Assembly: GCA_031459615.1 (NCBI GenBank)
Contig: JAVKIE010000013.1
Location: 226-64,225, forward strand
Reading direction: 5' to 3'
Length of the DNA stretch: 64,000 nucleotides
From: Candidatus Calidihabitans tengchongensis
Lineage (GTDB): Bacteria > Sysuimicrobiota > Sysuimicrobiia > Sysuimicrobiales > Kaftiobacteriaceae
Below are positions 16,358-41,632 of this stretch, piece after piece (the stretch's first letter is position 1; the number at the start of each line of letters is the position of its first letter). The notes under the pieces were generated by a model. That model did no database searches. It saw nothing but the letters and a program-made list of their open reading frames with translations, and had not been told where the DNA came from. The translations under genes and the position numbers were made by a program.

Positions 16358-16369
16358 GGAGGAAAACCC

Positions 16370-27326: not shown

Positions 27327-29069
27327 ATGCCCATGGGGCTGCGGGGCAGGATCATGGTGTTGGTGGCCGTGGGAGTTCTGGCGGCCACCGCCCCCCTGGG
27401 CGTGATGGGCCTGGTCATGGTGCAGGCGGCCACCGACCGGGTCCTGGAGGAGAGGCTGGCCATGGCCCGGACTGTGGCTGCCCACCTCGGCGCGCGGATC
27501 GCCCAGGGCTGGAGCCAGCTGGATCAGATCGCCGCCCGCGCCGCCTCCCGGGAGACGCCGGACCTCCGGCGGGACCTGCCGATGCTGTCCGCCGCGGACC
27601 TGTTCTCCGGAGGCGTGGGGGTCCTCGACGCCCGGGGCGGGCTCCGGGCCGGCGCGGTGATCCCGCGCATGCTGGAGGCCGGCGCACCCCGGATCCTGGA
27701 GGTCGCCCGCACGGGCCGGCGGGGGGTCACCTCCGTGGTGCGGGCGGGCGATGCGGCGGCGGTCTTCCTGGTCGTGCCCGTGGTCTCCTCGGAGGGGACC
27801 GTCACCGGCGCGGTGGTCGGGGGCATCGATCTGGGCGGCCCGGTGTTGCGGGCCTTCGTGGATGGCCTCGCCCAGGGGCTGACCGGCCACGCAGTGGTGG
27901 TGGACAGAGATGGCACCGTCCTGGCCAGCACGCGTCAGGCGGATCTGTTCACCCGGGAGGAGCATCCGGAGTTCTTCGCGCGCCTGATCTCCGCCGGTCG
28001 TCCCCTCGTGGCCCCGGCCGAGAAGGTCGTCACCTCCCGGGGCGGCCGGGAACTGCACGTGATGGCCTTCGCGCCGGTGCCGGGCGTCCCGTGGGGCATC
28101 GGGGTCGGGCAGGATGACCGCGAGACGTTCGGACCTCTGCGGCGCCTGCGGGACCGCATCATCGTCTTCGAGGTGCTGGTCCTGGCGGCCGCCCTGATCT
28201 TTGCGTGGCTCGATACCGGCGCCGTCAGCGCGCCGCTGCGGGCCCTGACCCGCGCCGCCGAGCGGATCGCGGCGGGGGATCTGGCCAGTCCCGTGGACAT
28301 TCACCGCAGCGATGAGATCGGCCAGCTGGGGGCCAGCTTCGAGACGATGCGCACCCGGCTGCTGCGCTCCCTGGAGGAGAACGCCCGACTGCAGGAACGG
28401 CTGCTGTCGGTGGCGGTGCTGGAGGAGCGCGAGCGGATCGCCCGGGAGATGCACGACCACGTGGGCCAGGTCCTGGGCTACGTCAACACCAAGGCGCAGG
28501 CGGTGCGGGCGCTGGTGGAGGCCGGGCGGCTGGACGATGCCCGCCGCCACCTGTCCCAGCTGGAGGAGGCGGCGCGCCAGGTGTACGCGGACCTGCGGGA
28601 GGCCATTCTCAGCCTGCGGATCGCCCCCGCTCCCGACCGCGGGCTGCGCCAGGCGCTGGAGGAATACGTCCGGCGCTTTGGAGAGATGAGCGGCCTTCCC
28701 GTCCACCTCGCCCTCGACGCGGCCGATGCCCTCGACGGCCTGCCCGCCGCCGCCCAGCTCCACCTGATCCGCATCGTCCAGGAAGCCCTCACCAACGTCC
28801 GCAAGCACGCCCGCGCCGGGCGGGCGTGGGTGCACTGCGCCCGGGATGGCGACGACCTGGTGGTCCGCGTGTCCGACGACGGGGTGGGGTTCGATCCCGG
28901 GGCGGGCGCCGCCGGCGGCGTGAGCATGGGGCTCGAGTCGATGCGGGAGAGGGCGTCGGCCATCGGCGGCGCCCTGCGCGTCTGGTCGGTGCCCGGCGGC
29001 GGCACCACGGTGGAGGTCCGCCTCCCGGCCCCGGGGAGGGATGGCCGTGCGCGTCCTGCTGGCGGATGA
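27327..29069 (+). CDS. NarX-type (HisKA_3) sensor kinase with Cache-like sensor and HAMP
   Basis: EERERIAREMHD, QEALTNVRKHA, DDGVGF. Confidence 0.93.
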   Translation: MPMGLRGRIMVLVAVGVLAATAPLGVMGLVMVQAATDRVLEERLAMARTVAAHLGARIAQGWSQLDQIAARAASRETPDLRRDLPMLSAADLFSGGVGVLDARGGLRAGAVIPRMLEAGAPRILEVARTGRRGVTSVVRAGDAAAVFLVVPVVSSEGTVTGAVVGGIDLGGPVLRAFVDGLAQGLTGHAVVVDRDGTVLASTRQADLFTREEHPEFFARLISAGRPLVAPAEKVVTSRGGRELHVMAFAPVPGVPWGIGVGQDDRETFGPLRRLRDRIIVFEVLVLAAALIFAWLDTGAVSAPLRALTRAAERIAAGDLASPVDIHRSDEIGQLGASFETMRTRLLRSLEENARLQERLLSVAVLEERERIAREMHDHVGQVLGYVNTKAQAVRALVEAGRLDDARRHLSQLEEAARQVYADLREAILSLRIAPAPDRGLRQALEEYVRRFGEMSGLPVHLALDAADALDGLPAAAQLHLIRIVQEALTNVRKHARAGRAWVHCARDGDDLVVRVSDDGVGFDPGAGAAGGVSMGLESMRERASAIGGALRVWSVPGGGTTVEVRLPAPGRDGRARPAGG

Positions 29070-29694
29070 CCATGCGCTGTTCCGGGACGGAATCCGCAGC
29101 CTGCTGGAGGCGCGGGGCGTAGAGGTGGTGGGGGAGGCCGCCGACGGGCGGGAGGCCGTGGAGGCCGCCCTCCGCCTGCGGCCCGACGTGGTCCTCATGG
29201 ACGTCGCCATGCCCGGCGTGGACGGACTGGAAGCCACGCGGGCCATCAAGGCGCACCTGCCCGACACCAAGGTGGTGATGCTCACCGTCTCCGACGACGA
29301 CCGCACCCTGTTCGAGGCCCTCCGCAGCGGTGCCCACGGGTACCTGCTGAAGAACCTGCAGGCCGAGGAGTTCTTCGACCTGCTGGCGGGCATCGACCGC
29401 GGTGAGGCGCCGCTGTCGCCGAGCCTGGCGGGCCGCATTCTGGACGAGTTCCGCCGCGGGAAGAGACCGGCCGAGCGGCCGGGACCCGACGAACTGACCG
29501 ACAAGGAGATGGAGGTCCTGCGGGCCGTCAGCCTGGGCGCCAGCAACAGGGAGATCGCGGCACGGCTGCGCATCTCCGAAAACACCGTCAAGTACCACAT
29601 CAAGAACATCCTGGATAAGCTCCACCTGCGCAACCGGGCGGAGGTGGTGGCCTACGCCGCCCGCCGCGGGTGGATCCGCCCGGACGGGACCTAG
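29041..29694 (+). CDS. NarL-family response regulator
   Basis: LADDHALFRDG, LuxR HTH ISENTVKYH. Confidence 0.96.
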   Translation: MAVRVLLADDHALFRDGIRSLLEARGVEVVGEAADGREAVEAALRLRPDVVLMDVAMPGVDGLEATRAIKAHLPDTKVVMLTVSDDDRTLFEALRSGAHGYLLKNLQAEEFFDLLAGIDRGEAPLSPSLAGRILDEFRRGKRPAERPGPDELTDKEMEVLRAVSLGASNREIAARLRISENTVKYHIKNILDKLHLRNRAEVVAYAARRGWIRPDGT

Positions 29695-29717
29695 TCCCCC
29701 CCCCGCCGATGTGGGGT

Positions 29718-29825
29718 TTGTGAATCAAGACTCTCAACAACTGAAAAATACAGCCTTCGCCCGATTGGCCCCGGGCCTGACAGCCGGCTAACGTTTTTGG
29801 CAGTATTCGTTGAAACCGTTGAAAC
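29718..29825 (+). promoter_or_regulatory. AT-rich promoter/operator region of the oxidase operon
   Basis: Imperfect palindrome TTGTGAATC-AA-GACTCTCAA at 29718; tandem CGTTGAAAC x2 at 29808-29825. Confidence 0.5.
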
Positions 29826-29828
29826 GAT

Positions 29829-30515
29829 ATGACGGCTGTCCCGTCCGCCAACCGCCCGCGACCCCGCGCCCGTGTTCTCCGGGCGGTGGCTGCCAAAGAC
29901 GACATCCTCCGGCGCCTGCCGTCCGCCGGCGGCCGTACCGTCCGCGAACTGGCCACGGCGGTCGGGCTGTCGCCGTCCGCCCTGCGCCAGCACCTGGCGT
30001 CCCTGGAACGGGAGGGCCTGGTCGAGAAGATGGCCGTCCGGGGCCGCCCCGGACGGCCGGCGTTCGCCTACCGCCGCGCCGAACCCTCCGCGGGCCCGGC
30101 CGATCCGTCCAGATTTCTGGGCGTGCTGTTGCGCGTGGTGGAGTCCCTGGGGCCGGACCGCGCCGCGGAGGTCGTGGACGGCGTGGTGGGGGCGCTGGAG
30201 AGCGAGTACCGGGCCATCGAGCAGATCCCCGACCCCGGCGCCCGCATCCGCGCGGCCGTTTCCGTGCTCTTCGACGGCGAGGGGCGCTCGCAGGTCCGCA
30301 TCGCCACCGACGGCTACGAGGTGAGCCTGCGGCGCTGTCCGTTGCTGCCGGCGGCCCGGGAGTCCCCGGCGTGCTGTGAGATCGCCCGGCGCCTGCTGGC
30401 CCGGCTGTCCCGCGCCGAGGTGGAACAGCGGGAGTCCCTGCTGCGGGGCGATCCCCGCTGCCTGTTCCTCCTGCGGGTGCCGGCCGCGGGCGGCCGGATG
30501 GCGAAGGCGGGGTGA
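29829..30515 (+). CDS. SufR-like HTH regulator with C-terminal Cys cluster
   Basis: TVRELA..LSPSALRQHLASLE, GRP, RCPL..CCE..GDPRC. Confidence 0.8.
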   Translation: MTAVPSANRPRPRARVLRAVAAKDDILRRLPSAGGRTVRELATAVGLSPSALRQHLASLEREGLVEKMAVRGRPGRPAFAYRRAEPSAGPADPSRFLGVLLRVVESLGPDRAAEVVDGVVGALESEYRAIEQIPDPGARIRAAVSVLFDGEGRSQVRIATDGYEVSLRRCPLLPAARESPACCEIARRLLARLSRAEVEQRESLLRGDPRCLFLLRVPAAGGRMAKAG

Positions 30516-31246
30516 GGCCGGTGGCGCGGCACGCGGGCGCGGTGGCCGTGCTGTGGGGCGTCCTGACCGTCCTGGGCCTGCTGGCGGCGGGACGCGCCCA
30601 CCTGCTGCCGGTGGCGGCCGCCCGGGAGGCCCGCATCATCGACGACGCCTTCCGCTTTCTCCTCCTGCTGGCGGTCCCGGTGTTCACGTTCGTGCTGGCC
30701 GCCCTCGCGTACTCGGTGGTGGCGTTCCGCGGCCGCGGGGAACCTCCCGACGACGGCCCCCCGCTGCGGGGGCGCTCGGCGGTGCCGTGGATCTGGCTGG
30801 CGGTCACGGGCGGCCTGGCCGTCTACGTCATCTTCAACCCCGGCCTGCGGGGTCTGGCCGAGCTGCGCGCCGATCGCCATGCGGACCTGGTGGTGCGGGT
30901 GGAGGGTTCCCGGTGGGTGTGGCGGTTCGTCTATCCCGACGCGGGCGTCACCAGCCGGGAGCTGGTCCTGCCGGTGGGCCGGCGAGTGCGGTTCGAGGTG
31001 ACTGCCGCCGACGTGGTCCACTCGTTCTGGATCCCGGCGTTCCGGGTGAAGGTGGACGCGGTGCCCGGCATGGTGACGACGGTGTACGTGACGCCCACCC
31101 GGGTCGGCGACCGGGCCGCCGACGTGAACTTCCGGGTCCAGTGCGCCGAGCTGTGCGGCCTGGGCCACCACCTGATGGCCTCGCCGGTCCGGGTGGTGGA
31201 CCCGGAGGCGTTTCGCGAGTGGGCGGAGAGCGCCCGGTCCCCGTAG
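30512..31246 (+). CDS. coxB: cytochrome c oxidase subunit II (CuA, no fused cytochrome c)
   Basis: DVVHSFWIP, QCAELCGLGHHLM. Confidence 0.95.
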   Translation: MRPVARHAGAVAVLWGVLTVLGLLAAGRAHLLPVAAAREARIIDDAFRFLLLLAVPVFTFVLAALAYSVVAFRGRGEPPDDGPPLRGRSAVPWIWLAVTGGLAVYVIFNPGLRGLAELRADRHADLVVRVEGSRWVWRFVYPDAGVTSRELVLPVGRRVRFEVTAADVVHSFWIPAFRVKVDAVPGMVTTVYVTPTRVGDRAADVNFRVQCAELCGLGHHLMASPVRVVDPEAFREWAESARSP

Positions 31247-31292
31247 GCGGCGGAGGCGGGGGCAGGGGGCACGAGGTGAGCGGGCTGTGCGC

Positions 31293-33122
31293 ATGATCGC
31301 GCGCGGGATCGGGTGGGGGCTGGTCGGTTTCGCGCTGGGCGCCGGGGCGACGCTGGCGGCCGGGTGGGCCGTGGGGCGCCCCCCGCGGGCCGAGGTCTGG
31401 GTGACCGTCGGCTACGTGATCGGGCTGGCCGGCTGGCTGCTGGGCGTCGGTCTGTGGGAGGCCTGGGCCCGGGGGTGGGTGGGGCTGCCGGTGCGCCACG
31501 AGCCCGACCACACGTGGCGGCGCTACGTCCGGTTCACCACCGACCACAAGGTGATCGGGGTGCAGTACCTGGTCACCTTCGTGGCGCTGTTCGTGGTGGC
31601 GGGCGCGATGGCGCTGGTGATGCGGGTGGAGCTGGCCGCCCCCGGGCCGACGGTGATGGGAGCCGCCGCCTACACCCACCTGATGAGCCTGCACGGCATC
31701 ATCATGATCGCCGTGGCGGTGGCCACCCTCCTGGGCGGCTTCGGCAACTACCTGGTGCCGCTGATGATCGGCGCCGAGGACATGGCCTTCCCCCGGCTCA
31801 ACGCCCTCAGTTACTGGCTGGTGCCGCCGGTGGCGGTGCTGCTGGTGGCCACGCCCTTGGCCGGCGGATTCGACACCGGGTGGACGGCCTACCCGCCCCT
31901 CAGCGTGGTCAACGCCAGCGGCCAGGTCCTGTTCAACCTGGCGGTGATCACCTTCGGGCTGTCCTCCATCCTGGGCGGGATCAATTTCCTGGCCACCATC
32001 GTGGGGCTGCGGGCTCCCGGCATGTCCTGGCGGCGGCTGCCGATCTTCGTGTGGTCGGTGTTCGCCGCGTCGCTGATCAGCGTCACCGCCACCCAGTACC
32101 TGGCGGCGGCGCTGCTGATGGTCCTGCTGGACCGGGAGGCGGGGATGGCGTTCTTCGCCCCGGCCCGGGGAGGCATGCCCCTCCTGTACCAGCACATCTT
32201 CTGGTTCTACTCCCACCCGGCGGTCTACATCATGATCCTGCCCGCCTTCGGCGTCGCCCTGGAGGTGCTGACCCACTTCTCCCGCAAGCCCCTGTACGCC
32301 TACCCCTGGGTGGTGGGAGGGTTCCTGGGCATCGTGGGGCTGAGCTTCGTGGTGTGGGCGCACCACCTCTACACCAGCGGCATGCGGGAGTCGCTGCTGG
32401 GCCCCTTCATGGCCACCACCGAGCTCATCTCCATCCCCACGGGGCTCGTGTTCCTGGCCGCCCTGGGGACCCTGTGGATGGGCCGGCTGTGGCTGCGCAC
32501 CCCGATGCTCTTCGCCCTGGGGTTCCTGTTCAACTTCCTGATCGGGGGCGTGACCGGCATCTTCAACGCCGACGTCCCCACCGATCTGCACCTGCAGGAC
32601 ACCTACTTCGTGGTCGGCCACTTCCACTACACCATCGTGGGCGGGATGATCTTCGCCCTCTTCAGCGGCCTGTACTACTGGTTCCCCAAGGTGACCGGGC
32701 GGATGTATGACGAGCGGCTGGGCCGGGTGCACTTCGGGTGGATGTTCCTGGCCTACAACGCCACGTTCCTGCCCATGTTCTGGGCGGGCGTGCACGGGAT
32801 GAACCGGCGCATCGCCGACTACCCGGCGTCCCTGGCCGGGGTGAACCTGTGGATTTCGGTCATGGCGGGCCTGCTGGGGGCCAGCATCCTGGTGTTCCTG
32901 TTCAACGTGGTGCGCAGCTGGCTTCGCGGGCCTCGGGCCGCGGCCAACCCCTGGGGGGCGCGGACGCTGGAGTGGCAGGTGCCGTCGCCTCCCCCCGAAG
33001 GCAACTTCCCCCACCCGCCCCAGGTGGTGGGGGATCCCTACGGCTACGGGGTGCCGGGGGCCGTGCACGCTGTGATGGCCGCCGCCGGCGGATCCGGGGA
33101 GGGGAGGGCCCATGGACTCTGA
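31293..33122 (+). CDS. coxA: heme-copper oxidase subunit I, A2-type
   Basis: TTDHKVIG, DMAFPRLN, WFYSHPAVY, VWAHH, VVGHFHY, GMNRR. Confidence 0.97.
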   Translation: MIARGIGWGLVGFALGAGATLAAGWAVGRPPRAEVWVTVGYVIGLAGWLLGVGLWEAWARGWVGLPVRHEPDHTWRRYVRFTTDHKVIGVQYLVTFVALFVVAGAMALVMRVELAAPGPTVMGAAAYTHLMSLHGIIMIAVAVATLLGGFGNYLVPLMIGAEDMAFPRLNALSYWLVPPVAVLLVATPLAGGFDTGWTAYPPLSVVNASGQVLFNLAVITFGLSSILGGINFLATIVGLRAPGMSWRRLPIFVWSVFAASLISVTATQYLAAALLMVLLDREAGMAFFAPARGGMPLLYQHIFWFYSHPAVYIMILPAFGVALEVLTHFSRKPLYAYPWVVGGFLGIVGLSFVVWAHHLYTSGMRESLLGPFMATTELISIPTGLVFLAALGTLWMGRLWLRTPMLFALGFLFNFLIGGVTGIFNADVPTDLHLQDTYFVVGHFHYTIVGGMIFALFSGLYYWFPKVTGRMYDERLGRVHFGWMFLAYNATFLPMFWAGVHGMNRRIADYPASLAGVNLWISVMAGLLGASILVFLFNVVRSWLRGPRAAANPWGARTLEWQVPSPPPEGNFPHPPQVVGDPYGYGVPGAVHAVMAAAGGSGEGRAHGL

Positions 33123-33315
33123 ACTGGCCGCGCGCCTGCGGGTGGGCACGCGGGTGCTGGGCGCCCTGCTGGCGCTCACCGTCCTGGAGGTGCCCGTGGC
33201 GTTCCGGGTGCCGCATCCGCTGCCGTGGCTGGTGCTGCTGAACCTGGCCGACGCCGCGCTCATCGTGTGGTACTTCATGCACGTCGCCGATCTGTGGCGC
33301 CCCGGGGAGGAGTGA
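33112..33315 (+). CDS. oxidase subunit IV-like small membrane protein
   Basis: LLALTVLEV...LIVWYFMHV. Confidence 0.8.
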   Translation: MDSELAARLRVGTRVLGALLALTVLEVPVAFRVPHPLPWLVLLNLADAALIVWYFMHVADLWRPGEE

Positions 33316-33317
33316 CC

Positions 33318-33884
33318 GTGGCCACCCGCGTCGCCGCCCGCCCCCGCTACAGCCGGCTGTATCTCCGGCGGCTGGGCCTGTGGCTGTTCCTGCTGTCCGA
33401 GGGGTTCCTGTTTTCCGCCCTGCTGGCCGCCCGCTACTACCTGCTGGGCCTGGAGCGGCCCGAGGGCCTCAACCAGCCCCTGGGGCTGGCCATCACCGCC
33501 GTGCTGCTGGCCAGCAGCCTCACCGCCTACCGCGCCGAAGCGGCCATCGCCCGGGGGCACCGGTCCCTGTTCGCGCGCAACACCCTGGCCACGGTCGGCC
33601 TGGGCCTGCTGTTCCTGGCAGGGGTGGGGGTGGAGTGGGCGCAGGCCTTTGCCCACTTTCCCCCCGGCCGGCGGGTGGGGACCATCTTCTTCACCCTGAC
33701 GGGCATGCACGCCCTGCACGTCGCCAGCGGGGTCGCGTTGCTGGCTGGCGTGTACCTGCACGGGCGCCGGGGTCGGTACGGCCCCCACGACTACTGGCCG
33801 GTGGAGGGGGCCGTCAAGTACTGGCACTTCGTGGACGTGGTGTGGGTGTTCATCTACCCCACTTTGTACCTGGTCACCGGCTGA
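33318..33884 (+). CDS. coxC: cytochrome c oxidase subunit III (short form)
   Basis: GLWLFLLSE, TLTGMHALHV, YWHFVDVVW. Confidence 0.93.
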   Translation: MATRVAARPRYSRLYLRRLGLWLFLLSEGFLFSALLAARYYLLGLERPEGLNQPLGLAITAVLLASSLTAYRAEAAIARGHRSLFARNTLATVGLGLLFLAGVGVEWAQAFAHFPPGRRVGTIFFTLTGMHALHVASGVALLAGVYLHGRRGRYGPHDYWPVEGAVKYWHFVDVVWVFIYPTLYLVTG

Positions 33885-33957
33885 GCTCCCCCCGCCCGCG
33901 CGCGCGCGTCCCGGCCACCCCGTCCGCCGTCCCGCCGCCCCTTCCGCCCGAGCGTGA

Positions 33958-33998
33958 CCTGCCCGAACGGGTAGGGGTGCTGACTACCCGGACGGGCG
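33958..33998. promoter_or_regulatory. tandem inverted boxes, NarL/LuxR-like candidate operator
   Basis: CCTGCCCG-AA-CGGGTAGG and CTACCCG-GA-CGGGCG upstream of the cupredoxin genes. Confidence 0.5.
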
Positions 33999-34057
33999 TT
34001 GTGCCGTCCTCCGCCGCGAGCGTACCCTGACGGTGGGTTGGGGTGCGGAGGTGGCAT

Positions 34058-34513
34058 ATGGCGGGTCGCACCGACGGGATCGCCTACTTCGCCCTCGTGG
34101 TGGCAGTCGTCGCCCTGGCCACCAGCCTGCTGGCCTACGGCCGGAGTCCCCGGCTGGAGGGGGCTGCGGCGCCGCGTCCGGCCGCCACCCTGCCGCTGTC
34201 CATGGTGGTGGCCACGTTCACCGGCCAGGGCATGGTGGCCCACCGCTGGTACCCCACCATGCTGGTGGCGCGGGTGGGAGACACCGTCGACCTGGCCGTG
34301 GCGAACCCCGACGCCTTTGCCCACCAGCTGGAGATCACCGGCTACGGTCTGCGGACCCGGCGGCTGGCTCCCGGCGCCAGCGACGACCTGCGGTTCGTGG
34401 CCGACCGGCCCGGGGTGTTCGTGTACCGGTGCGCCCTGCCCCACAATCCCGCGACCCGGGACTGCACGCCCGACCACGAGCAGATGCGCGGCTACCTGAT
34501 CGTCACCGAGTGA
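34058..34513 (+). CDS. membrane-anchored cupredoxin 1
   Basis: N-terminal TM, GDTV.L, AHQL, PGVFVYRCALPHNPATRDCTPDHEQM. Confidence 0.85.
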   Translation: MAGRTDGIAYFALVVAVVALATSLLAYGRSPRLEGAAAPRPAATLPLSMVVATFTGQGMVAHRWYPTMLVARVGDTVDLAVANPDAFAHQLEITGYGLRTRRLAPGASDDLRFVADRPGVFVYRCALPHNPATRDCTPDHEQMRGYLIVTE

Positions 34514-34518
34514 CGGAT

Positions 34519-34977
34519 ATGGAGGGGGCGCGGTCGGTGGTGGCGGGGGTCTCCCTGGCGATCTCCCTGGTCGCCCTGGGAATCAGCGCCCTGACCCTGC
34601 TGGCGTCCCCGCCGGCGGGCGGCTCCCCGCCGGCGCGCGTGGACCTGGAGCTGCTGATCACCGGGCGGGGGGCCATCGGCGGGCCGGCCGAAAGCCACCT
34701 GTTCGATCCCCAGCTGCTGGTCGTGCGGCGGGGCGACACGGTGCGGCTGCGGGTCCTCAACCTGTCCCACTTCCGCCACGGCCTGGAGTTTGCCGGGCTG
34801 GGCGTGCGCACCGGCGCCCTGCACGGGGGGGCGGCCGAGGTCGTGGAGTTCGCGGCCGACCGGCCCGGCATCTTCGAGTATCGCTGTTACCTGCCCCACG
34901 ATCCGGCCACCGGGACCTGCGCCCCGGATCACGACCGGATGGTGGGGCACCTGGTGGTGGTGGAAGGGCGACGCTGA
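34519..34977 (+). CDS. membrane-anchored cupredoxin 2
   Basis: N-terminal TM, GDTVRL, RHGL, PGIFEYRCYLPHDPATGTCAPDHDRM. Confidence 0.85.
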   Translation: MEGARSVVAGVSLAISLVALGISALTLLASPPAGGSPPARVDLELLITGRGAIGGPAESHLFDPQLLVVRRGDTVRLRVLNLSHFRHGLEFAGLGVRTGALHGGAAEVVEFAADRPGIFEYRCYLPHDPATGTCAPDHDRMVGHLVVVEGRR

Positions 34978-35019
34978 CGCGATCGCAGTCCACGACGAGA
35001 CCGATGGAGGTGAGGAGGG

Positions 35020-35484
35020 ATGCGGATGAGGACGGTCGTGATCCTGGGGATCGCTCTGGCCCTGGCGGCCATCGGCCCCGCGGCGGGAGCCCCCAAGGCC
35101 CAGAAGGTCACCGTCGTGCTCAACGAGATGAGCTTCACGCCCTCTCGGGTGACGGTGACCGCGGGCACGCCGGTGGAGCTGGTCCTGGTGAACCGCGGCA
35201 AGCAGAAGCACGAGTTCATGGTGTACAGCCTGCCCCGGGCGGGGCTGGCCGGTGAAGAGCTGGAGGAGTGGGCCAAGGAGAACACCTACTTCAAGGGCGT
35301 CGAGGTGACCGTGGAGACTGCAGGGGTGGAAATTGAGGCGGAGGCCCTGATGGAGGTGGAGCTGGCGCCGGGGCGGTCGGTGACGCTGGAGTTCACCCCG
35401 CAGCGCAAGGGGACGTTCGAGATCGGGTGCCACGTGGAAGGCCACTACGAGGCCGGCATGAAGGGCACCTTTGTCGTCCGATAG
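35020..35484 (+). CDS. exported type-1 cupredoxin 3
   Basis: Signal peptide, KHEF, GCHVEGHYEAGM. Confidence 0.9.
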   Translation: MRMRTVVILGIALALAAIGPAAGAPKAQKVTVVLNEMSFTPSRVTVTAGTPVELVLVNRGKQKHEFMVYSLPRAGLAGEELEEWAKENTYFKGVEVTVETAGVEIEAEALMEVELAPGRSVTLEFTPQRKGTFEIGCHVEGHYEAGMKGTFVVR

Positions 35485-35494
35485 GAGGCGCGCC

Positions 35495-35938
35495 GTGAAC
35501 GGCCGGGGGCTGGCGCTGTCGGCGGTGATCGTCGCGGCCGTCGTGGCCGGGGCGTCCGGGTACGTGGTGCTGCGGTCCGCGCGCCCTCCTGTCTCGGCGG
35601 CACCCCCGGTCGTGCCCGAAGTGCGCCAGTTCGACCTGTGGCTGCACGTCCTGGAGGCGGGGGAGACCGCCGTGCGGCACTGGGTCCCGCCGGTTGTGGT
35701 GGTGAATGCGGGGGACACGGTCATCCTGCGGCTCCACAACGGGGATCCGGAGGCCGCCCACGGCTTTGTGGTGGCGGCCCTGAACGTGGTGGTCCCCCCG
35801 ATCCCTCCGGGGGAAACGGCGACGGTGCGGTTTGTGGCGCAGCGGCCCGGCATCTACCACTACGGCTGCGCCGCCGCCGGGTGCGCGCCGGACCACGCCG
35901 GCCAGATCGGTCAGCTGGTGGTGCTGGGAGGCCGGTAG
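35495..35938 (+). CDS. membrane-anchored cupredoxin 4
   Basis: N-terminal TM, GDTVILRL, AHGF, YGCAAAGCAPDHAGQ. Confidence 0.82.
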   Translation: MNGRGLALSAVIVAAVVAGASGYVVLRSARPPVSAAPPVVPEVRQFDLWLHVLEAGETAVRHWVPPVVVVNAGDTVILRLHNGDPEAAHGFVVAALNVVVPPIPPGETATVRFVAQRPGIYHYGCAAAGCAPDHAGQIGQLVVLGGR

Positions 35939-36871
35939 GTGCGCCTGACGCGACGCTCGTTCCTCACGTCCCTCGCGGCGGTGGCGGCCGCCCTGTCGGG
36001 CTCCCGGGCGGTGGCCCCGCTGGCCCGGTGGCGCCGCGGCGTGAAGGGCGCGGTGCCCGCGCTGGTGGCCCGGCCGGAGGGGGTCCACAGCCTGGCACAC
36101 CTGGAGGCTGTGCCCGCAGGCGGAGGCGTGGCCCTGGCCTTCGCCGCGGAGCCACCGCGGGCGGAGCCGGCGGCGGCCTCGGGACGCCGGTGGGTGATGG
36201 TGATCGACCTGGCGCGCTGCGACGGGTGCCGGGAGTGCACCCGCGCCTGCCAGGCGATGCACTTCCTCCCCGGCGGCCAGGAGTGGATCCGGGTGTACGA
36301 GATGCGCGATCACGAGCTGGGCGCGCCCTACTGGCTGCCCCGCCCGTGCATGCAGTGCGACAATCCGCCGTGCGTGAAGGTGTGCCCCGTGTCGGCCACC
36401 TGGAAGCGGGAGGACGGGATCGTCATGCAGGACACCTCCCGCTGCATCGGCTGCCGGTTCTGCATGGCCGCCTGCCCGTACCAGGCCCGCAGCTTCAACT
36501 GGGTGGACCCGGAGGTCCCCGGCATGCCCGACGAGCCCTACGCGATGGAGTGGAACCGGGTGCACCGCCGCGGGACCACGGAAAAGTGCATCTTCTGCCC
36601 GGCCCTGCTCGCCGAGGGCCGGCTGCCGGCGTGCGCGGCCGCGTGCCCCATGGGCGCCATCTACTTCGGCGACCAGGGAGAGGACGCCGTCACCAACTCC
36701 CAGGGGGAGACCGTGCGCCTGTCGGAGCTGGTGGCCGCCAACGCCGGCTACCGCCTGCTGGAGGAGCTGGGGACCGAGCCCCGGGTCTACTACCTGCCGC
36801 CCCGGCGCCCCCTGTATCCGCCTCCGCCCCCCGCCACCGAGCCGGCCTCGGCCGGGGAGGCCCGACGATGA
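35939..36871 (+). CDS. Tat-exported four-cluster [4Fe-4S] protein (NrfC/DsrO-like)
   Basis: LTRRSFL, WVMVIDLARCDGC, CMQCDNPPC, CIGCRFC, KCIFC. Confidence 0.93.
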   Translation: MRLTRRSFLTSLAAVAAALSGSRAVAPLARWRRGVKGAVPALVARPEGVHSLAHLEAVPAGGGVALAFAAEPPRAEPAAASGRRWVMVIDLARCDGCRECTRACQAMHFLPGGQEWIRVYEMRDHELGAPYWLPRPCMQCDNPPCVKVCPVSATWKREDGIVMQDTSRCIGCRFCMAACPYQARSFNWVDPEVPGMPDEPYAMEWNRVHRRGTTEKCIFCPALLAEGRLPACAAACPMGAIYFGDQGEDAVTNSQGETVRLSELVAANAGYRLLEELGTEPRVYYLPPRRPLYPPPPPATEPASAGEARR

Positions 36872-38418
36872 TGCGCCGCCGGGATCTCTTCTCGCCCCGG
36901 GAGCTCCGCGTGCTGGCCTCCCTGCACGGGGGCGGGCCGGGCTTTTACGCCCTCATGGGCGTTCTGGTCGGGGTGGCGCTCTGGGGGCTCATCGCCTACG
37001 GCGTCCAGCTGCGCTACGGCCTGGGCGTGACCGGGCTGCGGGACAACGTCATGTGGGGCGTCTACATCACCAACTTCGTGTTCTTCATCGGGGTCAGCCA
37101 CGTCGGCGCGCTGATGTCGGCCATCCTGCGCCTCACCGGAGCCGAGTGGCGGCGGCCGATCACCCGCATGGCCGAGGCCATCACCTTCGCGTCGCTGCTC
37201 ATGGGGGGCCTGATGCCCCTGGTGGATATGGGCCGGCCGGACCGGCTCCTCAACCTGGTGCTGCACGGGCGGCTGCAGTCGCCCATCCTGTGGGACATCC
37301 TGTCCATCACCACCTACCTCACCGGCAGCACGCTGTTCCTGTACGTGCCCATGATCCCCGACATCGCCCTGCTCCGGGACCGGTTCGCGGCGGGGCCGGC
37401 GTGGCGGCGGAGGCTGTACACCGCCCTGGCCCTGGGGTGGCGCGGCACCGAGGTCCAGCGCCGCCACCTGGAGGCGGCCATGGGCATCCTGGCCGTCCTC
37501 ATCATCCCCATCGCGGTGTCGGTCCACACGGTGGTGTCCTGGATCATGGCCATGACCCTGCGGGCGGGGTGGAACAGCACCATCTTCGGTCCGTACTTCG
37601 TCTCCGGGGCGCTGTTCAGCGGGGCGGCGGCCGTGGTCACCGCCATGGCCGCCTTCCGGTGGGCCTACCGCCTGGAGGAGTACATCACCGAAGACCACTT
37701 CCGCCGGATGGGCTACCTGGTGATCGCCCTGGGCCTGATCTACGCCTACTTCACCTTCAACGAGTACTGGGTCCCGGCGTTCAAGATGGCCTCCCATGAG
37801 CGCGGCTACCTGGCGGCGGTGCTGAGCGGGCCGTTTGCCCGGCTGTTCTGGTTCACCCAGGTGGGCGGGCTGCTGCTCCCGGTGCTGCTGCTGACCCTGC
37901 CCCGGGCGTCCCTGGTCCCCCGCCTGGCCCGGGTTCCCCTGCTTCAGCCCCGGCCGGCCCTGGCGGCGGCGGCGGCGTCGGGGGTGCTGGCGATCGCGGC
38001 CTACGCTCCGCCGTCGCCGGTGGCGGCGACGCTGGACGCCGGTGTGCTGCGGGCGGTTGCCGCCGGGACGCTCGCGGTGGCATCGCTGTGGGTGCTGGTG
38101 GCCCTGCTGCCCCTCTGCCGCGCCCGCCCGATCGCCACGGCGACTGTGGCGTCCGTGCTGGTCAACGTGGGCGCGTGGTGGAAGCGGTACGTGATCATCG
38201 TCCCCACGCTCCAGTCGCCGTTCCTGCCGATCCAGCGGGCGCCCCAGGGGTGGGGGGTGTACACGCCCACCTGGGTGGAGTGGTCGATTACCTTCGGAGC
38301 CGTGGCCGGCTTCCTGCTGATCTACATCGTGTTCAGCAAGCTGTTCCCCATCGTCTCCCTGTGGGAGACCCGGGAGACCGAGCAGGGCGGGGAGGTGGCC
38401 CATGCGCTGGCCCGTTAG
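36868..38418 (+). CDS. NrfD-family membrane subunit (ActC/DsrP-like)
   Basis: WGVYITNFVFFIG, RMAE, DMGRPDR, QSPILWD, SVHTVVSW, YTPTWVE. Confidence 0.93.
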   Translation: MMRRRDLFSPRELRVLASLHGGGPGFYALMGVLVGVALWGLIAYGVQLRYGLGVTGLRDNVMWGVYITNFVFFIGVSHVGALMSAILRLTGAEWRRPITRMAEAITFASLLMGGLMPLVDMGRPDRLLNLVLHGRLQSPILWDILSITTYLTGSTLFLYVPMIPDIALLRDRFAAGPAWRRRLYTALALGWRGTEVQRRHLEAAMGILAVLIIPIAVSVHTVVSWIMAMTLRAGWNSTIFGPYFVSGALFSGAAAVVTAMAAFRWAYRLEEYITEDHFRRMGYLVIALGLIYAYFTFNEYWVPAFKMASHERGYLAAVLSGPFARLFWFTQVGGLLLPVLLLTLPRASLVPRLARVPLLQPRPALAAAAASGVLAIAAYAPPSPVAATLDAGVLRAVAAGTLAVASLWVLVALLPLCRARPIATATVASVLVNVGAWWKRYVIIVPTLQSPFLPIQRAPQGWGVYTPTWVEWSITFGAVAGFLLIYIVFSKLFPIVSLWETRETEQGGEVAHALAR

Positions 38419-38917
38419 TGCGGCGGCCGCGGTGGTGGGGATCCTCCTCCTGTCCTCGGGGGCGGCCGCCGGCGTCGCCCTCTCCCTGGAGTCGGGGCCC
38501 GGAGGGCGGCCGCAGGTCGCGGCGGTGGTGACGGACGATTCCGGGGAGCCCGTGGAAGGCGCCACCGTGGCCTTCCGGGCCCGCACCGCCTTCGGCTGGC
38601 TTCCCCTGGGAGAGGTGACCACCGACGCGTCCGGGAGAGCGGTCCTGGCGCTGCCGTCCGGGCGCCCGTACCCGGAGATCGAGGCGGAGGTGTCCGAGCC
38701 TCCGCAGCGGGCGGCCCTGACCCTCGCGGAGCGCCCCGCGTGGCGCCCCGCGGTCCGGCCCGGCCGGCAGGTCCTGCAGGCCCTCAGCCCCCAGCCGGGC
38801 CTCATCAGCCCGTACCCCGTCCCGCCCCTGGCCCTGCTGGGGGCCCTCCTGGGCGGCATCTGGGCGACGTACGGCTACATCGTCTTTCTGCTCACCCGGA
38901 TCGCCACCGGCCGCTGA
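38402..38917 (+). CDS. Ig-like exported domain with C-terminal TM anchor
   Basis: Signal peptide, GEPVEGATVAF...TTDASG, C-terminal TM. Confidence 0.7.
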   Translation: MRWPVSAAAAVVGILLLSSGAAAGVALSLESGPGGRPQVAAVVTDDSGEPVEGATVAFRARTAFGWLPLGEVTTDASGRAVLALPSGRPYPEIEAEVSEPPQRAALTLAERPAWRPAVRPGRQVLQALSPQPGLISPYPVPPLALLGALLGGIWATYGYIVFLLTRIATGR

Positions 38918-38970
38918 CCCGCGGAGGCTCCCCGCCCCTGGCGGGGATGACGGGCCCCGCGCGAGGGGCC

Positions 38971-39621
38971 TCAGGGTTCAATGAGGCCCTTGCGGATGGC
39001 GTAGCGGACCAGTTCGGTGCGGTCGTGCAGGCCCAGCTTCTCCAGGATGTGGGCCCGGTGCGTCTGCACCGTCTTGATGCTGATGAACAGGCGCTCGGCG
39101 ATCTGCTGGTTGGACAGCCCCTGGGCGATGAGGGTGAGGATCTCCTTCTCCCGCTCGGTCAGTCCGTCGTAGCGGTCCCGCTCCTCCCCGGCCTCGACCC
39201 GCTTGAGGTAGTCCTCCACCACCTTGCGGGCGACCGAGGGATACAGGAACGCTTCTCCCCGGGCGGCCGAGCGGACCGCCTGGACCAGGTCGGAGGCGGC
39301 CGCGCGCTTGAGCACGTAGCCCGAGGCCCCCGCCCGCAGCAGCTGGAAGACGTAGGACTCGTCCTCGTGCATGGTCAGGGCCAGCACCGCGACGCCCGGA
39401 TGGCGCTCTTTGACTTTGTGGGTGGCCTCGATGCCGCCCATGCCCGGCATGCTGATGTCCATGATCACCACGTCGGGCCGCAGGCGCTCCACCAGCTCCA
39501 GGGCCTGCTGGCCGTCCCCCGCCTCGCCCACCACCTCGATGTCCTGTTCCCGCTCGAGGATCATGCGGACGCCCTCGCGGACGATGGCGTGGTCGTCGGC
39601 GATCAGAACCTTAATGGCCAT
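38971..39621 (-). CDS. NarL/NreC-family response regulator
   Basis: IADDHAIVREG, ISIKTVQTHRAHI. Confidence 0.96.
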   Translation of the reverse strand: MAIKVLIADDHAIVREGVRMILEREQDIEVVGEAGDGQQALELVERLRPDVVIMDISMPGMGGIEATHKVKERHPGVAVLALTMHEDESYVFQLLRAGASGYVLKRAAASDLVQAVRSAARGEAFLYPSVARKVVEDYLKRVEAGEERDRYDGLTEREKEILTLIAQGLSNQQIAERLFISIKTVQTHRAHILEKLGLHDRTELVRYAIRKGLIEP

Positions 39622-41344: not shown

Positions 41345-41419
41345 ATCTCCTATCGTACACAGCCCGCGGGGGGTTGTCTTCGGGCGCCCGGGCAGGGGCA
41401 GAGGGGAGCGGAAGGCCGC

Positions 41420-41632
41420 TCAGCCGGCCCGCCGCAGCGGGGGGTGGATGTCGGGCAGTGGAGGCGTGCGCGGAAGGGCCCGGCGGTCCAGGACGGCGGT
41501 GAGGGGATACCCGCACCGGGGGCAGGCGCCTCCCGGAGAGGGGACAAAGATGGCCCCGCAGTGGGGACAGATGGCCAGGTCCGGAGACGGAGAGTGCCGC
41601 ACGCGACTGCCGGAGACGCCCATGGGCACCAC
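41420..41632 (-). CDS. small zinc-ribbon protein
   Basis: CPHCG...CPRCG. Confidence 0.5.
   Translation of the reverse strand: MVPMGVSGSRVRHSPSPDLAICPHCGAIFVPSPGGACPRCGYPLTAVLDRRALPRTPPLPDIHPPLRRAG

What the first reader, a model, noticed from the sequence alone, without database searches (positions are those of the whole stretch)
29829..38917. Candidate copper-wired, heme-c-free quinol-to-O2 module: oxidase + four cupredoxins + Tat-FeS/NrfD
Seen: coxB/coxA/IV/III, four tandem cupredoxin genes, a Tat-exported four-cluster FeS protein, an ActC/DsrP-like NrfD and an Ig-like anchored protein, all on one strand and mostly tightly coupled. No CxxCH protein and no Mo catalytic subunit occur in the block, and CoxB has no fused cytochrome c. 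Known: alternative complex III uses ActC, the FeS part of ActB and heme-c proteins (ActA/ActE) to pass quinol electrons to heme-copper oxidases. Inference: cupredoxins replace the cytochromes here, giving a minimal ACIII-like quinol:cupredoxin oxidoreductase feeding the oxidase. Alternatively it is an electron-uptake conduit of the rusticyanin type. I know of no described system with this composition.
Basis: partly seen in the sequence, partly recalled or inferred. Interest (0 to 1): 0.88.

Follow-up and report, generated by a model that had tools for sequence, protein, structure and literature searches.

The report
Haem-free copper-wired quinol oxidoreductase module
Next to a cytochrome oxidase operon, this hot-spring bacterium encodes an iron-sulfur protein, a quinol-binding membrane protein and copper proteins that look like a haem-free relative of alternative complex III; related modules occur in many bacterial and archaeal phyla and appear undescribed.

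Summary
The genes are real, with one correction. 29829-30512 is an ArsR-type regulator, not coxB, which starts at 30512. The + strand then carries coxB, coxA, coxIV, coxC, four cupredoxins, a Tat-exported four-cluster FeS protein, a 516-aa NrfD and an Ig-like anchored protein. None has CxxCH and there is no Mo subunit.

The NrfD matches only ACIII ActC chains among solved structures. Three cupredoxins (Cup1, Cup2, Cup4) are membrane-anchored and carry two-Cys, CuA-like ligand sets. Cup3 is a secreted classical blue-copper protein.

In relatives the conserved unit is kinase/regulator + cupredoxins + FeS + NrfD + Ig. Cox adjacency is seen in only 3 of 13 module-bearing genomes.

FeS + ActC-like NrfD + Ig-anchor modules occur across at least a dozen phyla. 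There the Ig subunit is often fused to a Cup4-like cupredoxin or, at the same position, to a cytochrome c.

Direction of electron flow, binding, copper content and the link to this oxidase remain inferred. The genome itself is not haem-c-free. Verdict: a new variant of a known kind, of high interest.

The parts
27327..29066 (+). Sensor histidine kinase (dCache, HAMP, HisKA_3, HATPase_c). Travels with the module in relatives.
   Evidence: Pfam. Orthologues of 50-73% identity lie next to the cupredoxin/FeS/NrfD genes in L013, L014, L015, L017, L022 and L023.
29041..29691 (+). NarL/LuxR-type response regulator paired with the kinase.
   Evidence: Pfam. NCBIfam best hit is NarL, 179 bits, below the cut-off of 250. 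Orthologues of 66-80% identity lie beside the module in relatives.
29829..30512 (+). ArsR-type HTH regulator with a Cys-bearing C-terminal domain.
   Evidence: Pfam HTH_5, E 3.6e-9. A paralogue lies upstream of the second A-type cox operon on C17.
30512..31243 (+). CoxB, oxidase subunit II with a CuA site and no cytochrome c domain.
   Evidence: PF00116, E 4.8e-17. CuA loop read directly. No CxxCH.
31287..33119 (+). CoxA, haem-copper oxidase subunit I. The motif YSHPAVY fits the A2 subtype; that subtype assignment rests on recall.
   Evidence: PF00115, E 3e-137. TIGR02891, 626 bits, below the cut-off of 670.75. Motif read.
33112..33312 (+). CoxIV, small oxidase subunit.
   Evidence: PF03626, 28.8 bits against a cut-off of 28.9. 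78% identical orthologue in G001.
33312..33881 (+). CoxC, short oxidase subunit III (190 aa).
   Evidence: PF00510, E 1e-20.
34058..34510 (+). Cup1, N-terminally anchored cupredoxin. Ligand set is H, then C-x10-C-x3-H-x2-M (two-Cys, CuA-like with an expanded loop).
   Evidence: Pfam Cupredoxin_1 below cut-off. The pattern is kept in 6 of 6 aligned orthologues.
34519..34974 (+). Cup2, a paralogue of Cup1 with the same anchor and ligand pattern.
   Evidence: The six close orthologues keep C-x10-C-x3-H-x2-M. Two distant paralogues in L016 have the canonical CuA spacing C-x3-C-x3-H-x2-M.
35020..35481 (+). Cup3, a secreted classical type-1 blue-copper protein (H, then C-x4-H-x4-M). Likely the mobile carrier.
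   Evidence: Cupredoxin_1, 60.5 bits (cut-off 27), and Copper-bind, 26.9 bits (cut-off 21.2). Signal peptide read directly. 13-sequence alignment.
35495..35935 (+). Cup4, an anchored two-Cys cupredoxin directly upstream of FeS. It is homologous to the cupredoxin domain that is fused to the Ig-anchor in other phyla.
   Evidence: H89, C125, C130, H134 and Q137 are invariant in 11 of 11 sequences. hhalign to CoxB puts these residues on the CuA ligands (89.9%, E 1.7e-6). hhalign to the fused family gives 96.5%, E 7.7e-10. AF2 model has pLDDT 68.5; its best fold hits are CuA domains at E 1e-4.
35939..36868 (+). Tat-exported NrfC/ActB2-like protein with four Cys motifs for four FeS clusters.
   Evidence: Pfam Fer4_11 and others. 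PDB hits are ArrB, PsrB and the ActB C-termini. NCBIfam DsrO scores 189.8 bits, below the cut-off of 200. All 16 Cys are invariant in 11 sequences.
36868..38415 (+). ActC-like NrfD membrane subunit. Presumed quinol site.
   Evidence: PF03916. Only ACIII ActC chains match in the PDB. The residues aligned to R. marinus ActC His139, Ser164 and Asp169 are D120, S138 and D143, all invariant. The residue aligned to Asp253 is I226.
38402..38914 (+). Ig-like beta-sandwich subunit with a C-terminal membrane helix. It has no conserved Cys or His. Equivalent to the C-terminal half of the cupredoxin/cytochrome-Ig subunit elsewhere, and fused to NrfD in 12 loci.

Best explanation
The block encodes a haem-free relative of alternative complex III.

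Proposed mechanism (inferred):
1. Menaquinol is oxidised at the ActC-like NrfD.
2. Electrons pass through the four FeS clusters of the Tat-exported NrfC-like protein on the outer face of the membrane.
3. They leave through a membrane-anchored two-Cys (CuA-like) cupredoxin, Cup4. Together with the Ig-anchor protein, Cup4 is the split form of a single cupredoxin-Ig-anchor subunit found in other phyla.
4. From there the anchored Cup1/Cup2 and the secreted type-1 Cup3 carry electrons to the CuA site of the co-encoded A-type oxidase. They probably also serve other copper enzymes of the cell, such as NosZ.

Shown: gene content, homologies, conserved ligand sets, the conserved cupredoxin-FeS-NrfD-Ig unit, and the fusion and domain-swap pattern across phyla.

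Inferred: complex formation, copper occupancy and nuclearity, the direction quinol to copper, proton coupling, and the oxidase as acceptor.
For: 1. ActC identity. Only 6lod_C, 6btm_C, 6f0k_C and 8k9e_C match, at E 1e-56 to 1e-60. In a FastTree of 103 NrfD rows the window's protein sits in a 96-row ActC-like clade (support 100). Canonical ACIII rows lie inside that clade, and PsrC-like rows, including the window's second NrfD, lie outside it.

2. Quinol site. Three of the four cited R. marinus ActC positions are compatible and invariant: D120, S138 and D143.

3. Conserved unit. Cup4 lies directly upstream of FeS-NrfD in 8 of 8 relatives' loci whose contig reaches that far. The Ig gene follows NrfD in 8 loci.

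4. Family pattern. Of 103 NrfD rows, 72 have the Ig subunit and 12 of those are NrfD-Ig fusions. There are 10 cupredoxin-Ig fusions, 9 cytochrome c-Ig fusions and 1 cytochrome c-cupredoxin-Ig fusion.

5. Cup4 aligns to the fused cupredoxin domain at 96.5% probability, E 7.7e-10. Its H/C/C/H/Q set falls on the CuA ligands of CoxB.

6. A profile of the fused subunit finds many relatives in 1.84 billion representatives. Among the best 150, 91 are 220-650 aa, and 87 of those 91 carry C-x3/4-C-x2-[H/M].

7. Cox linkage occurs in two independent arrangements. In G000 and G001 an A2-type cox operon with its own regulator sits between the module's kinase/regulator pair and Cup1. In G010 the paralogous module lies 1.9 kb from, and divergent to, the other A-type cox operon.

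8. Neither CoxB of the genome has a cytochrome c domain.

9. RNA-library contigs differing from the window by 0-1 letters cover parts of the block in three studies. They bridge HTH/coxB, Cup2/Cup3, Cup3/Cup4 and Cup4/FeS in run X7, and coxIV/coxC in X9.
Against: - Cox adjacency is absent in 10 of 13 module-bearing genomes. The window-type CoxA (at least 69% identity) is found in only 6 of those 13. The other 7 are 86-95% complete.
- None of the loci from other phyla had a CoxA match within about 10 kb.
- The genome has other quinol exits, namely two Rieske/cytochrome b sets, and it has c-type cytochromes.
- ActC Asp253 is not conserved; the window has I226.
- The Cys spacing of Cup1, Cup2 and Cup4 is not the canonical CuA spacing, and Cup4 has Gln where CuA has Met. 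A mononuclear or other site is therefore possible.
- The Cup4 model is only moderately confident, and its ligand loop has pLDDT below 50.
- RNA-library contigs cannot exclude DNA carry-over or prove a single transcript.
- Nothing shows the direction of electron flow.
Confidence: 0.5

Rival explanations
1. General cupredoxin reductase for denitrification enzymes. The module oxidises quinol and feeds a cupredoxin pool that mainly serves NosZ and/or copper nitrite reductase. It would be functionally like the NosGH quinol dehydrogenase module of clade II nos clusters (NosGH is recalled, not read here). On this reading the cox adjacency in this genus is incidental.
For: - NosZ is present in G000 at C17:66497-69022.
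- In G012 the module lies 14 kb from nosZ.
- Orthologues of the window-type CoxA lie about 6 kb from nosZ in G029 and G032.
- The PMC11604079 passage reports nirK and nosZ in this phylum.
- The associated regulators are NarL-type.
Against: - NosZ was found in only 5 of the 13 module-bearing genomes, and in 7 genomes without the module.
- nosZ is not adjacent to the module in G000; it is on a different contig.
- In G000 and G001 the cox operon is nested inside the module.
Confidence: 0.17
2. Reverse operation. The module is a cupredoxin:quinone oxidoreductase that pushes electrons uphill from a high-potential periplasmic or extracellular donor (Fe(II), Mn(II) or similar) into the quinone pool. 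The adjacent oxidase takes the downhill branch. This is the rusticyanin-type scheme and the first reader's alternative.
For: - Cox plus several cupredoxins plus a quinone-interacting complex in one cluster resembles the recalled layout of the Acidithiobacillus rus and pet operons.
- In Planctomycetota and Bacteroidota the module sits beside porin-like or beta-barrel proteins, an EB_dh haem-domain protein and monohaem cytochromes. This fits traffic with the outer membrane.
- The phylum is described as chemoautotrophic (abstract of PMC11604079).
Against: - No outer-membrane or donor-oxidising component lies in the window's block.
- The electron donors named for the phylum are hydrogen and sulfide (abstract). 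By established knowledge these enter at the quinone level and need no uphill branch.
- Characterised ActC-type complexes work as quinol oxidases (abstracts of PMC7439408 and PMC8552683, listings).
Confidence: 0.12
3. Copper-stress system. The cupredoxins sequester or redox-buffer periplasmic copper, as CopI does, and the FeS-NrfD pair supplies or removes electrons for that purpose.
For: - The best NCBIfam hit of Cup3 is the copper-resistance cuproprotein CopI (E 1e-16).
- The Cup3 orthologue in L018 carries a Met/Gln/Gly-rich insert.
- The CopI abstract describes a cupredoxin-like periplasmic protein with His/Met-rich regions (PMC13308877, listing).
Against: - The CopI score is 61 bits against a cut-off of 280.
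- Cup3 of the window has no His/Met-rich region (read directly).
- The kinases and regulators beside the module are NarL/HisKA_3-type in three phyla, not CopRS-type. The heavy-metal kinase model scores only 32-33 bits against a cut-off of 292.
- No copper efflux genes were seen in the block.
Confidence: 0.07
4. The FeS-NrfD pair is the membrane anchor of a catalytic Mo or multihaem subunit encoded elsewhere. The cupredoxins are then unrelated neighbours.
For: - A Mo subunit is encoded 22 kb upstream in the window.
- In L033 its orthologous Mo-FeS-NrfD cluster starts about 300 nt after the module.
Against: - That Mo enzyme has its own FeS and PsrC-like NrfD genes in both genomes.
- The third NrfCD pair, on C17, has its own pentahaem protein.
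- Cupredoxin and Ig fusions to the module's own subunits tie the copper domain to the complex.
Confidence: 0.05

Closest known systems
Alternative complex III (ActABCDEF), including its role as menaquinol:auracyanin oxidoreductase in Chloroflexus
   Same: - The ActC-type NrfD subunit is the only kind of solved relative.
- There is a Tat-exported FeS chain like the ActB C-terminal half.
- The FeS protein is periplasm-facing.
- A blue-copper protein is a likely downstream carrier, as for auracyanin (reference title seen).
   Different: - No ActA pentahaem and no ActE monohaem: 0 CxxCH in the block.
- No Mo-like ActB1 domain.
- Only one NrfD-like gene, so no ActF.
- Two extra parts: an Ig-anchor subunit, and two-Cys cupredoxins that would take the place of the haems inside the complex.
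NrfCD-type quinol dehydrogenase pairs without a catalytic Mo subunit (for example Melioribacter roseus Mros1571/1572; NosGH of clade II nos clusters, recalled)
   Same: - A two-subunit FeS plus NrfD core with no Mo subunit.
- Such pairs are proposed to pass quinol electrons to periplasmic carriers (PMC3534657 passage).
   Different: - The carriers described for those pairs are c-type cytochromes.
- Here the partner domains are cupredoxins, and a conserved Ig-anchor subunit is part of the unit.
- nosZ is not adjacent.
DsrOP and QrcCD modules
   Same: These are the best NCBIfam names for the FeS protein (DsrO, QrcC) and for NrfD (DsrP, QrcD).
   Different: - All scores are below the curated cut-offs: 189.8 vs 200, 154 vs 400, 98.6 vs 350 and 41.7 vs 570.
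- No haem subunits are adjacent.
- The PDB and tree results place the NrfD with ActC.
CuA domain of haem-copper oxidase subunit II and of N2O reductase
   Same: - Cupredoxin fold.
- The Cup4 residues H, C, C, H align to the CuA ligands of CoxB.
- The best NCBIfam hit of Cup4 is the NosZ C-terminal domain (E 2.4e-11).
- The best fold hits are soluble CuA domains.
   Different: - These are stand-alone proteins with a single membrane anchor, not part of an oxidase or of NosZ.
- The Cys spacing is x4 (Cup4) or x10 (Cup1/2) instead of x3.
- Cup4 has Gln instead of Met.
- Copper nuclearity is unknown.

Membership tests
Alternative complex III | ActC-type NrfD quinol subunit | tested here: met
   Only ACIII ActC chains match in the PDB. 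The protein falls in the ActC-like clade, support 100.
Alternative complex III | ActB with an N-terminal Mo-enzyme-like domain fused to or paired with the FeS domain | tested here: not met
   The FeS protein is 310 aa with Fer4 domains only. There is no Molybdopterin domain in the block.
Alternative complex III | Pentahaem ActA and monohaem ActE | tested here: not met
   No CxxCH in any coding-like ORF of the block.
Alternative complex III | Second NrfD-like subunit, ActF | tested here: not met
   There is one PF03916 match in the block. The other two matches in the genome belong to other clusters.
Alternative complex III | Quinol-site residues of R. marinus ActC (His139, Ser164, Asp169, Asp253; from PMC8076601 section 7) | tested here: inconclusive
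   The aligned residues are D120, S138, D143 and I226. Two are identical, one is a substitution tolerated elsewhere in the family, and one is lost.
NrfCD-type module of the complex iron-sulfur molybdoenzyme superfamily, without catalytic subunit | Tat-exported four-cluster NrfC-like protein next to an NrfD-like protein, with no Mo subunit beside them | tested here: met
A-type haem-copper oxidase | Subunit I (COX1), subunit II with a CuA loop, subunits III and IV | tested here: met
   CuA loop and HPxVY motif read. The A2 subtype by the YS motif rests on recall.
Type-1 blue-copper protein (Cup3) | Cupredoxin fold with H, then C-xn-H-xn-M ligands, and a secretion signal | tested here: met
   Pfam Cupredoxin_1 and Copper-bind are above their cut-offs. 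The C and both H positions are kept in 13 of 13 aligned sequences. The axial position is M or Q.
CuA-type binuclear cupredoxin (Cup1, Cup2, Cup4) | H, then C-x3-C-x3-H-x2-M ligand set | tested here: inconclusive
   The ligand positions align to CoxB for Cup4. The spacing is x4 or x10, and Cup4 has Q for M. Canonical spacing is seen only in two distant paralogues in L016.
CuA-type binuclear cupredoxin (Cup1, Cup2, Cup4) | Two copper ions per site (purple, mixed-valence) | not testable with these tools
   Needs metal analysis, UV-visible spectroscopy and EPR.
DsrMKJOP (DsrO/DsrP) | Scores over the NCBIfam equivalog cut-offs | tested here: not met
   DsrO 189.8 bits vs 200; DsrP 98.6 bits vs 350.
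CopI copper-resistance cuproprotein (Cup3) | Score over the NCBIfam cut-off, and His/Met-rich regions | tested here: not met
   61.3 bits vs 280. No His/Met-rich stretch in Cup3 of the window (read).
NosGH-type quinol dehydrogenase of nos clusters | Location within a nosZ cluster | tested here: not met
   nosZ is on contig C17 and the module on C5. NosZ is present in 5 of the 13 module-bearing genomes.

The most novel reading that the evidence does not exclude
FeS + ActC-like NrfD + (two-Cys cupredoxin)-Ig-anchor is a widespread, so far unrecognised class of haem-free, copper-wired quinol:acceptor oxidoreductase. It would be a 'copper complex III'. It occurs in bacteria and in archaea (Nitrososphaerota, Bathyarchaeia, Thermoplasmatota). 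A CuA-like centre would be the electron exit, and cytochrome c and cupredoxin domains would be interchangeable at that exit. Canonical ACIII would be one elaborated branch of the same lineage.
Probability: 0.4. Interest if true: 0.87.

Novelty: new variant of a known kind. Interest (0 to 1): 0.72.

Why it matters
If the module works as proposed, quinol oxidation can be linked to terminal copper enzymes with no haem at any step between the quinone pool and CuA. This bears on three questions:
- How organisms with few or no c-type cytochromes respire. These include ammonia-oxidising and other archaea, Chloroflexota and Gram-positive lineages.
- How ACIII evolved.
- Whether CuA-type centres act outside oxidases and N2O reductase.

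It also gives a compact three- or four-subunit complex that is suitable for cryo-EM and spectroscopy. Finally, it gives annotators a marker for a respiratory module now labelled only 'polysulfide reductase NrfD / 4Fe-4S protein / hypothetical protein'.

Tried and rejected
- Complex prediction. FeS (residues 40-310) + NrfD + Cup4 as partner, each as an alignment. Verdict 'no answer': ipSAE 0.00 and 0.00, and the controls were not run. This counts neither for nor against binding.

- Promoter and terminator scan of 29000-39600. 0 promoter-like and 4 terminator-like sites were found, against 0.3 and 2.3 expected by chance. Not informative in a 72% GC genome.

- The search for homologous proteins with the fused subunit of L080. 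Only 1 hit. The word-based search was uninformative, so it was replaced by the profile search.

- Foldseek on the Cup4 model and the Ig model. Matches are weak (best E 1e-4 and 8e-4). They are used only to say 'cupredoxin, CuA domains rank first' and 'beta-sandwich'.

- The greedy longest-ORF gene calls produced antisense artefacts in high-GC loci (clusters c4 and c8). The 'bigUp' flags are therefore rough. The Ig, cupredoxin and cytochrome c classes rest on HMM and motif hits instead.

- I first read the response regulators beside the module in other phyla as OmpR/CopR-like, from one cluster representative. NCBIfam on four kinases and three regulators from L046, L055, L074 and L084 showed NarL/HisKA_3 types, so that idea was dropped.

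- Co-occurrence of the module with the window-type CoxA (6 of 13) or with NosZ (5 of 13) gave no clear association. The genomes are kin and many are incomplete, so no statistics were attempted. These tallies over 41 genomes include the unpublished genome G033. It had no module NrfD and no NosZ match, and its only CoxA match was 48% identical. No other claim rests on it.

- Parts of the block without RNA-library contig cover are not evidence of silence.

- Literature searches:
  - NrfD + cupredoxin: 2 unrelated papers.
  - NrfD or blue-copper names.
  - NrfD-like, ACIII and NrfC.
  - Armatimonadota, cupredoxin, ACIII and Geohabitans.
  - Sysuimicrobiota and CSP1-3.
  - 'quinol cupredoxin', 'cupredoxin oxidoreductase' and similar phrases: only 'auracyanin oxidoreductase' was found.
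  - ACIII-like, NrfCD and NosGH.
  None of the listings or passages read describes an FeS-NrfD-cupredoxin-Ig complex. PMC8076601 has 0 occurrences of 'copper'. PMC11604079 has 0 occurrences of 'copper', 'complex III' or 'polysulfide'. Subscription-journal papers and supplementary files could not be searched. Supplementary gene tables of PMC11604079 and PMC8076601 may list these genes.

Full report
**What is in the sequence**

The window is 72% GC, so genes were called by third-position GC and open frames and named with Pfam. From 27327 to 38914 the + strand carries these genes:
- a dCache/HAMP/HisKA_3 kinase (27327-29066) and a LuxR/NarL-type regulator (29041-29691);
- an ArsR-type HTH protein (29829-30512);
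- CoxB (30512-31243), CoxA (31287-33119), CoxIV (33112-33312) and CoxC (33312-33881);
- four cupredoxins, Cup1 to Cup4 (34058-34510, 34519-34974, 35020-35481, 35495-35935);
- a twin-arginine FeS protein (35939-36868);
- an NrfD protein of 516 aa (36868-38415);
- a 171-aa protein with an N-terminal signal, a beta-sandwich and a C-terminal membrane helix (38402-38914).

No coding-like ORF of the block has CxxCH. No Molybdopterin domain occurs in it. CoxB has the CuA loop but no cytochrome c domain. Most junctions overlap or are under 45 nt.

**The organism**

The window lies on contig C5 of a 2.34 Mb, 23-contig genome that is 97% complete. Public records of the same genus are titled Armatimonadota. 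A relative is 'Candidatus Geohabitans tengchongensis', which NCBI places in Candidatus Sysuimicrobiota, also called CSP1-3. The abstract of PMC11604079 describes this phylum as facultative anaerobes, with autotrophy on hydrogen or sulfide encoded in 3 of 5 families. Near-identical DNA is held by hot-spring metagenomes.

**The genome is not free of haem c**

- The window itself holds cytochrome c maturation genes on the minus strand (3245-8090).
- It holds a Rieske protein, a cytochrome b and a multihaem cytochrome c at 8113-10885.
- It holds a complete Mo-FeS-NrfD enzyme with Moco synthesis genes at 11473-21027.
- Elsewhere there is a second Rieske/cytochrome b set with a dihaem cytochrome c and a type-1 cupredoxin on C1.
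- Four ORFs on C17 have 5-10 CxxCH, next to a third FeS-NrfD pair.
- NosZ is on C17.
- A second A-type cox operon on C17 has a CoxB that also lacks a cytochrome c domain.
- Two further divergent haem-copper oxidase genes are present.

**The core proteins**

The NrfD matches only four distinct PDB sequences, all ACIII ActC subunits, at E 1e-56 to 1e-60. PsrC was not matched at E 0.001. I mapped the alignment to R. marinus ActC onto the residues listed in PMC8076601 section 7:
- His139 corresponds to D120.
- Ser164 corresponds to S138.
- Asp169 corresponds to D143.
- Asp253 corresponds to I226.

The first three are invariant in 12 aligned family members. That paper lists Asp at the His139 position in many other NrfD-like subunits.

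The FeS protein has four complete Cys motifs, all invariant in 11 orthologues. It resembles ArrB, PsrB and the C-terminal halves of ActB. NCBIfam names DsrO and DsrP come first but stay below their cut-offs.

**The cupredoxins**

Cup3 is a secreted classical type-1 protein (H, then C-x4-H-x4-M). Its Pfam scores are above the cut-offs.

Cup1, Cup2 and Cup4 each have an N-terminal membrane helix and two Cys in the ligand loop:
- Cup1 and Cup2 have H, then C-x10-C-x3-H-x2-M.
- Cup4 has H89, C125-x4-C130-x3-H134-x2-Q137, invariant in 11 of 11 sequences.
- Two distant paralogues in a relative (L016) have the canonical CuA spacing C-x3-C-x3-H-x2-M.

A profile comparison puts the five Cup4 residues on the CuA ligands of CoxB (89.9%, E 1.7e-6). 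The best NCBIfam hit of Cup4 is the CuA domain of NosZ. A moderate AlphaFold2 model (pLDDT 68.5, ligand loop below 50) finds soluble CuA domains first, but only at E 1e-4 and among other cupredoxins.

The two-Cys, CuA-like character is thus shown at sequence level. Copper nuclearity is not shown.

**Synteny in relatives**

Among 41 genomes of the order (G000 included), 13 have an NrfD at least 53% identical.

Where contigs allow, the conserved unit is kinase/regulator, Cup1/Cup2, Cup3, Cup4, FeS, NrfD and Ig:
- Cup4 directly precedes FeS in 8 of 8 loci that reach that far.
- Ig follows NrfD in 8 loci.

Cox is next to the module only in three genomes:
- In G000 and G001, the regulator-cox unit sits between the module's kinase/regulator pair and Cup1.
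- In G010, a paralogous module lies 1.9 kb from the other A-type cox operon, on the opposite strand.

The window-type CoxA (at least 69% identity) is present in 10 of 41 genomes and in 6 of the 13 with the module. NosZ is present in 12 of 41 genomes and in 5 of the 13. The link to this oxidase is therefore suggestive, with two independent arrangements, but it is not conserved.

**The wider family**

The best 80 were kept.

I dropped seven rows: six loci that repeated a place already held or were near-identical to it, and one truncated copy. This left 103 NrfD rows from those loci and the relatives, classified by neighbours with HMMs built here:

| Class | Rows |
|---|---|
| Ig-anchor subunit after NrfD or fused to it | 72 |
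| of which NrfD-Ig fusions | 12 |
| of which cupredoxin-Ig fusions | 10 |
| of which cytochrome c-Ig fusions | 9 |
| of which cytochrome c-cupredoxin-Ig (L054) | 1 |
| of which with separate Cup genes | 12 |
| No Ig; large upstream ORF and/or multihaem proteins (canonical ACIII and Mo enzymes) | 21 |
| No Ig seen; nothing nearby or short contigs | 8 |
| Contig ends before the Ig position, Cup genes present | 2 |

The Ig-type rows come from Chloroflexota, Bacteroidota, Acidobacteriota, Planctomycetota, Actinomycetota, Bacillota, Verrucomicrobiota, Gemmatimonadota, Nitrososphaerota, Bathyarchaeota, Thermoplasmatota and the window's own lineage.

The fused cupredoxin domain has an invariant His and C-x3/4-C-x2-H/M, mostly followed by Gln. 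Cup4 aligns to it at 96.5% probability, E 7.7e-10. So Cup4 plus the Ig protein look like the split form of one subunit.

A profile of the fused subunit, searched against 1.84 billion representatives, gave 302 proteins at E 1e-30 or better. That count is inflated by giant Ig-repeat proteins. Of the best 150, 91 are 220-650 aa, and 87 of those 91 carry the two-Cys motif.

In a FastTree of the 103 rows, all ActC-like proteins form one clade (support 100), apart from PsrC-like ones. Canonical ACIII rows sit among the Ig-type groups. The order of the major groups has support of only 81-91 and no root was tested.

Kinase/regulator pairs tested beside the module in Bacteroidota and Chloroflexota are also HisKA_3/NarL-type.

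**Expression hints**

Contigs from three RNA libraries of three studies match the block with 0-1 differences:
- In X7 they bridge HTH/coxB, Cup2/Cup3, Cup3/Cup4 and Cup4/FeS.
- In X9 they cover coxB and coxA and bridge coxIV/coxC.
- In X10 they cover Cup3 and FeS.

Contigs cannot prove transcription, strand or a single transcript, and DNA carry-over is possible.

**Interpretation**

The most economical reading is an ACIII-like quinol:acceptor oxidoreductase in which a CuA-like cupredoxin subunit takes the place of the haem subunits. Anchored and soluble cupredoxins would then carry electrons on to the A-type oxidase nested in the cluster, and probably to other copper enzymes.

The strongest single argument is the interchange of cytochrome c and cupredoxin domains on the same Ig-anchor subunit of homologous modules. 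The fusions of Ig to NrfD add to it, because they tie these parts to one complex.

Rival readings are not excluded:
- a general supply line for denitrification enzymes;
- reverse operation for electron uptake;
- a copper-stress role, suggested by a sub-threshold CopI match of Cup3;
- a catalytic partner encoded elsewhere.

**Prior literature**

The literature searches listed under Tried and rejected found no description of this composition. The nearest statements were these:
- NrfCD pairs without Mo subunits as generic quinol:acceptor reductases (PMC3534657, passage).
- ACIII as a menaquinol:auracyanin oxidoreductase (reference title).

Supplementary files and subscription journals were not searchable.

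Noticed in passing
window 3245-8090 (minus strand): Cytochrome c maturation genes: two PF01578 matches, CcmF-like and CcmC-like, with ABC-type neighbours. A second set lies on contig C1.
   Followed up: partly
window 8113-10885: A Rieske protein, a cytochrome b (411 aa) and a multihaem cytochrome c (Cytochrome_C7/c3 domains) lie in a row. This is a bc-type quinol-oxidising complex 20 kb upstream of the copper module.
   Followed up: partly
window 11473-21027; L033 12425-17218: A Mo subunit (864 aa), an FeS protein and a PsrC-like NrfD, followed by MobA, MoeA and MobB genes. In relative L033 the orthologous Mo cluster starts about 300 nt after the module's Ig gene. The substrate is unknown.
   Followed up: partly
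window 29829-30512; G000 C17:72242-73360: An ArsR-type HTH regulator with a conserved Cys-bearing C-terminal domain (weak MetOD1 hit) precedes both A-type cox operons of the genome. It may be a redox or metal sensor for oxidase expression.
   Followed up: no
L054 7487-8812: A Chloroflexota protein joins a cytochrome c domain, the two-Cys cupredoxin domain, the Ig domain and the membrane anchor in one chain.
   Followed up: partly
L046 6966-11178; L041 11316-13943: In Bacteroidota the FeS-NrfD-Ig genes are followed by an EB_dh haem-domain protein, a DUF5777 membrane beta-barrel and a monohaem cytochrome c. In a Planctomycetota locus they are followed by a monohaem cytochrome, a porin-like protein and another monohaem cytochrome. 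This hints at traffic with the outer membrane.
   Followed up: partly
L018 3441-3971 (minus strand): The Cup3 orthologue of relative G026 carries a Met/Gln/Gly-rich insert that is absent from the window's Cup3. The insert is reminiscent of Cu(I)-binding Met-rich regions.
   Followed up: no
G000 C17:74570-75172; L014 10014-10703; L017 6967-7626; L022 9570-10442: A membrane protein of about 200 aa has no Pfam match (tested on the L014 copy). In G000 it lies just upstream of the second cox operon. In G012, G007 and G010 it lies next to the module.
   Followed up: partly
G029 C11:85687-93704; G032 C16:24368-32403: Orthologues of the window-type CoxA lie about 6 kb from nosZ in two genomes of a sister family.
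   Followed up: no
window 38971-42479: A second two-component set lies just downstream: a LuxR-type regulator and a GAF/HisKA_3 kinase on the minus strand, then another LuxR-type regulator on the plus strand. Homologues of the first regulator also lie near the module in L016 and L033.
   Followed up: no
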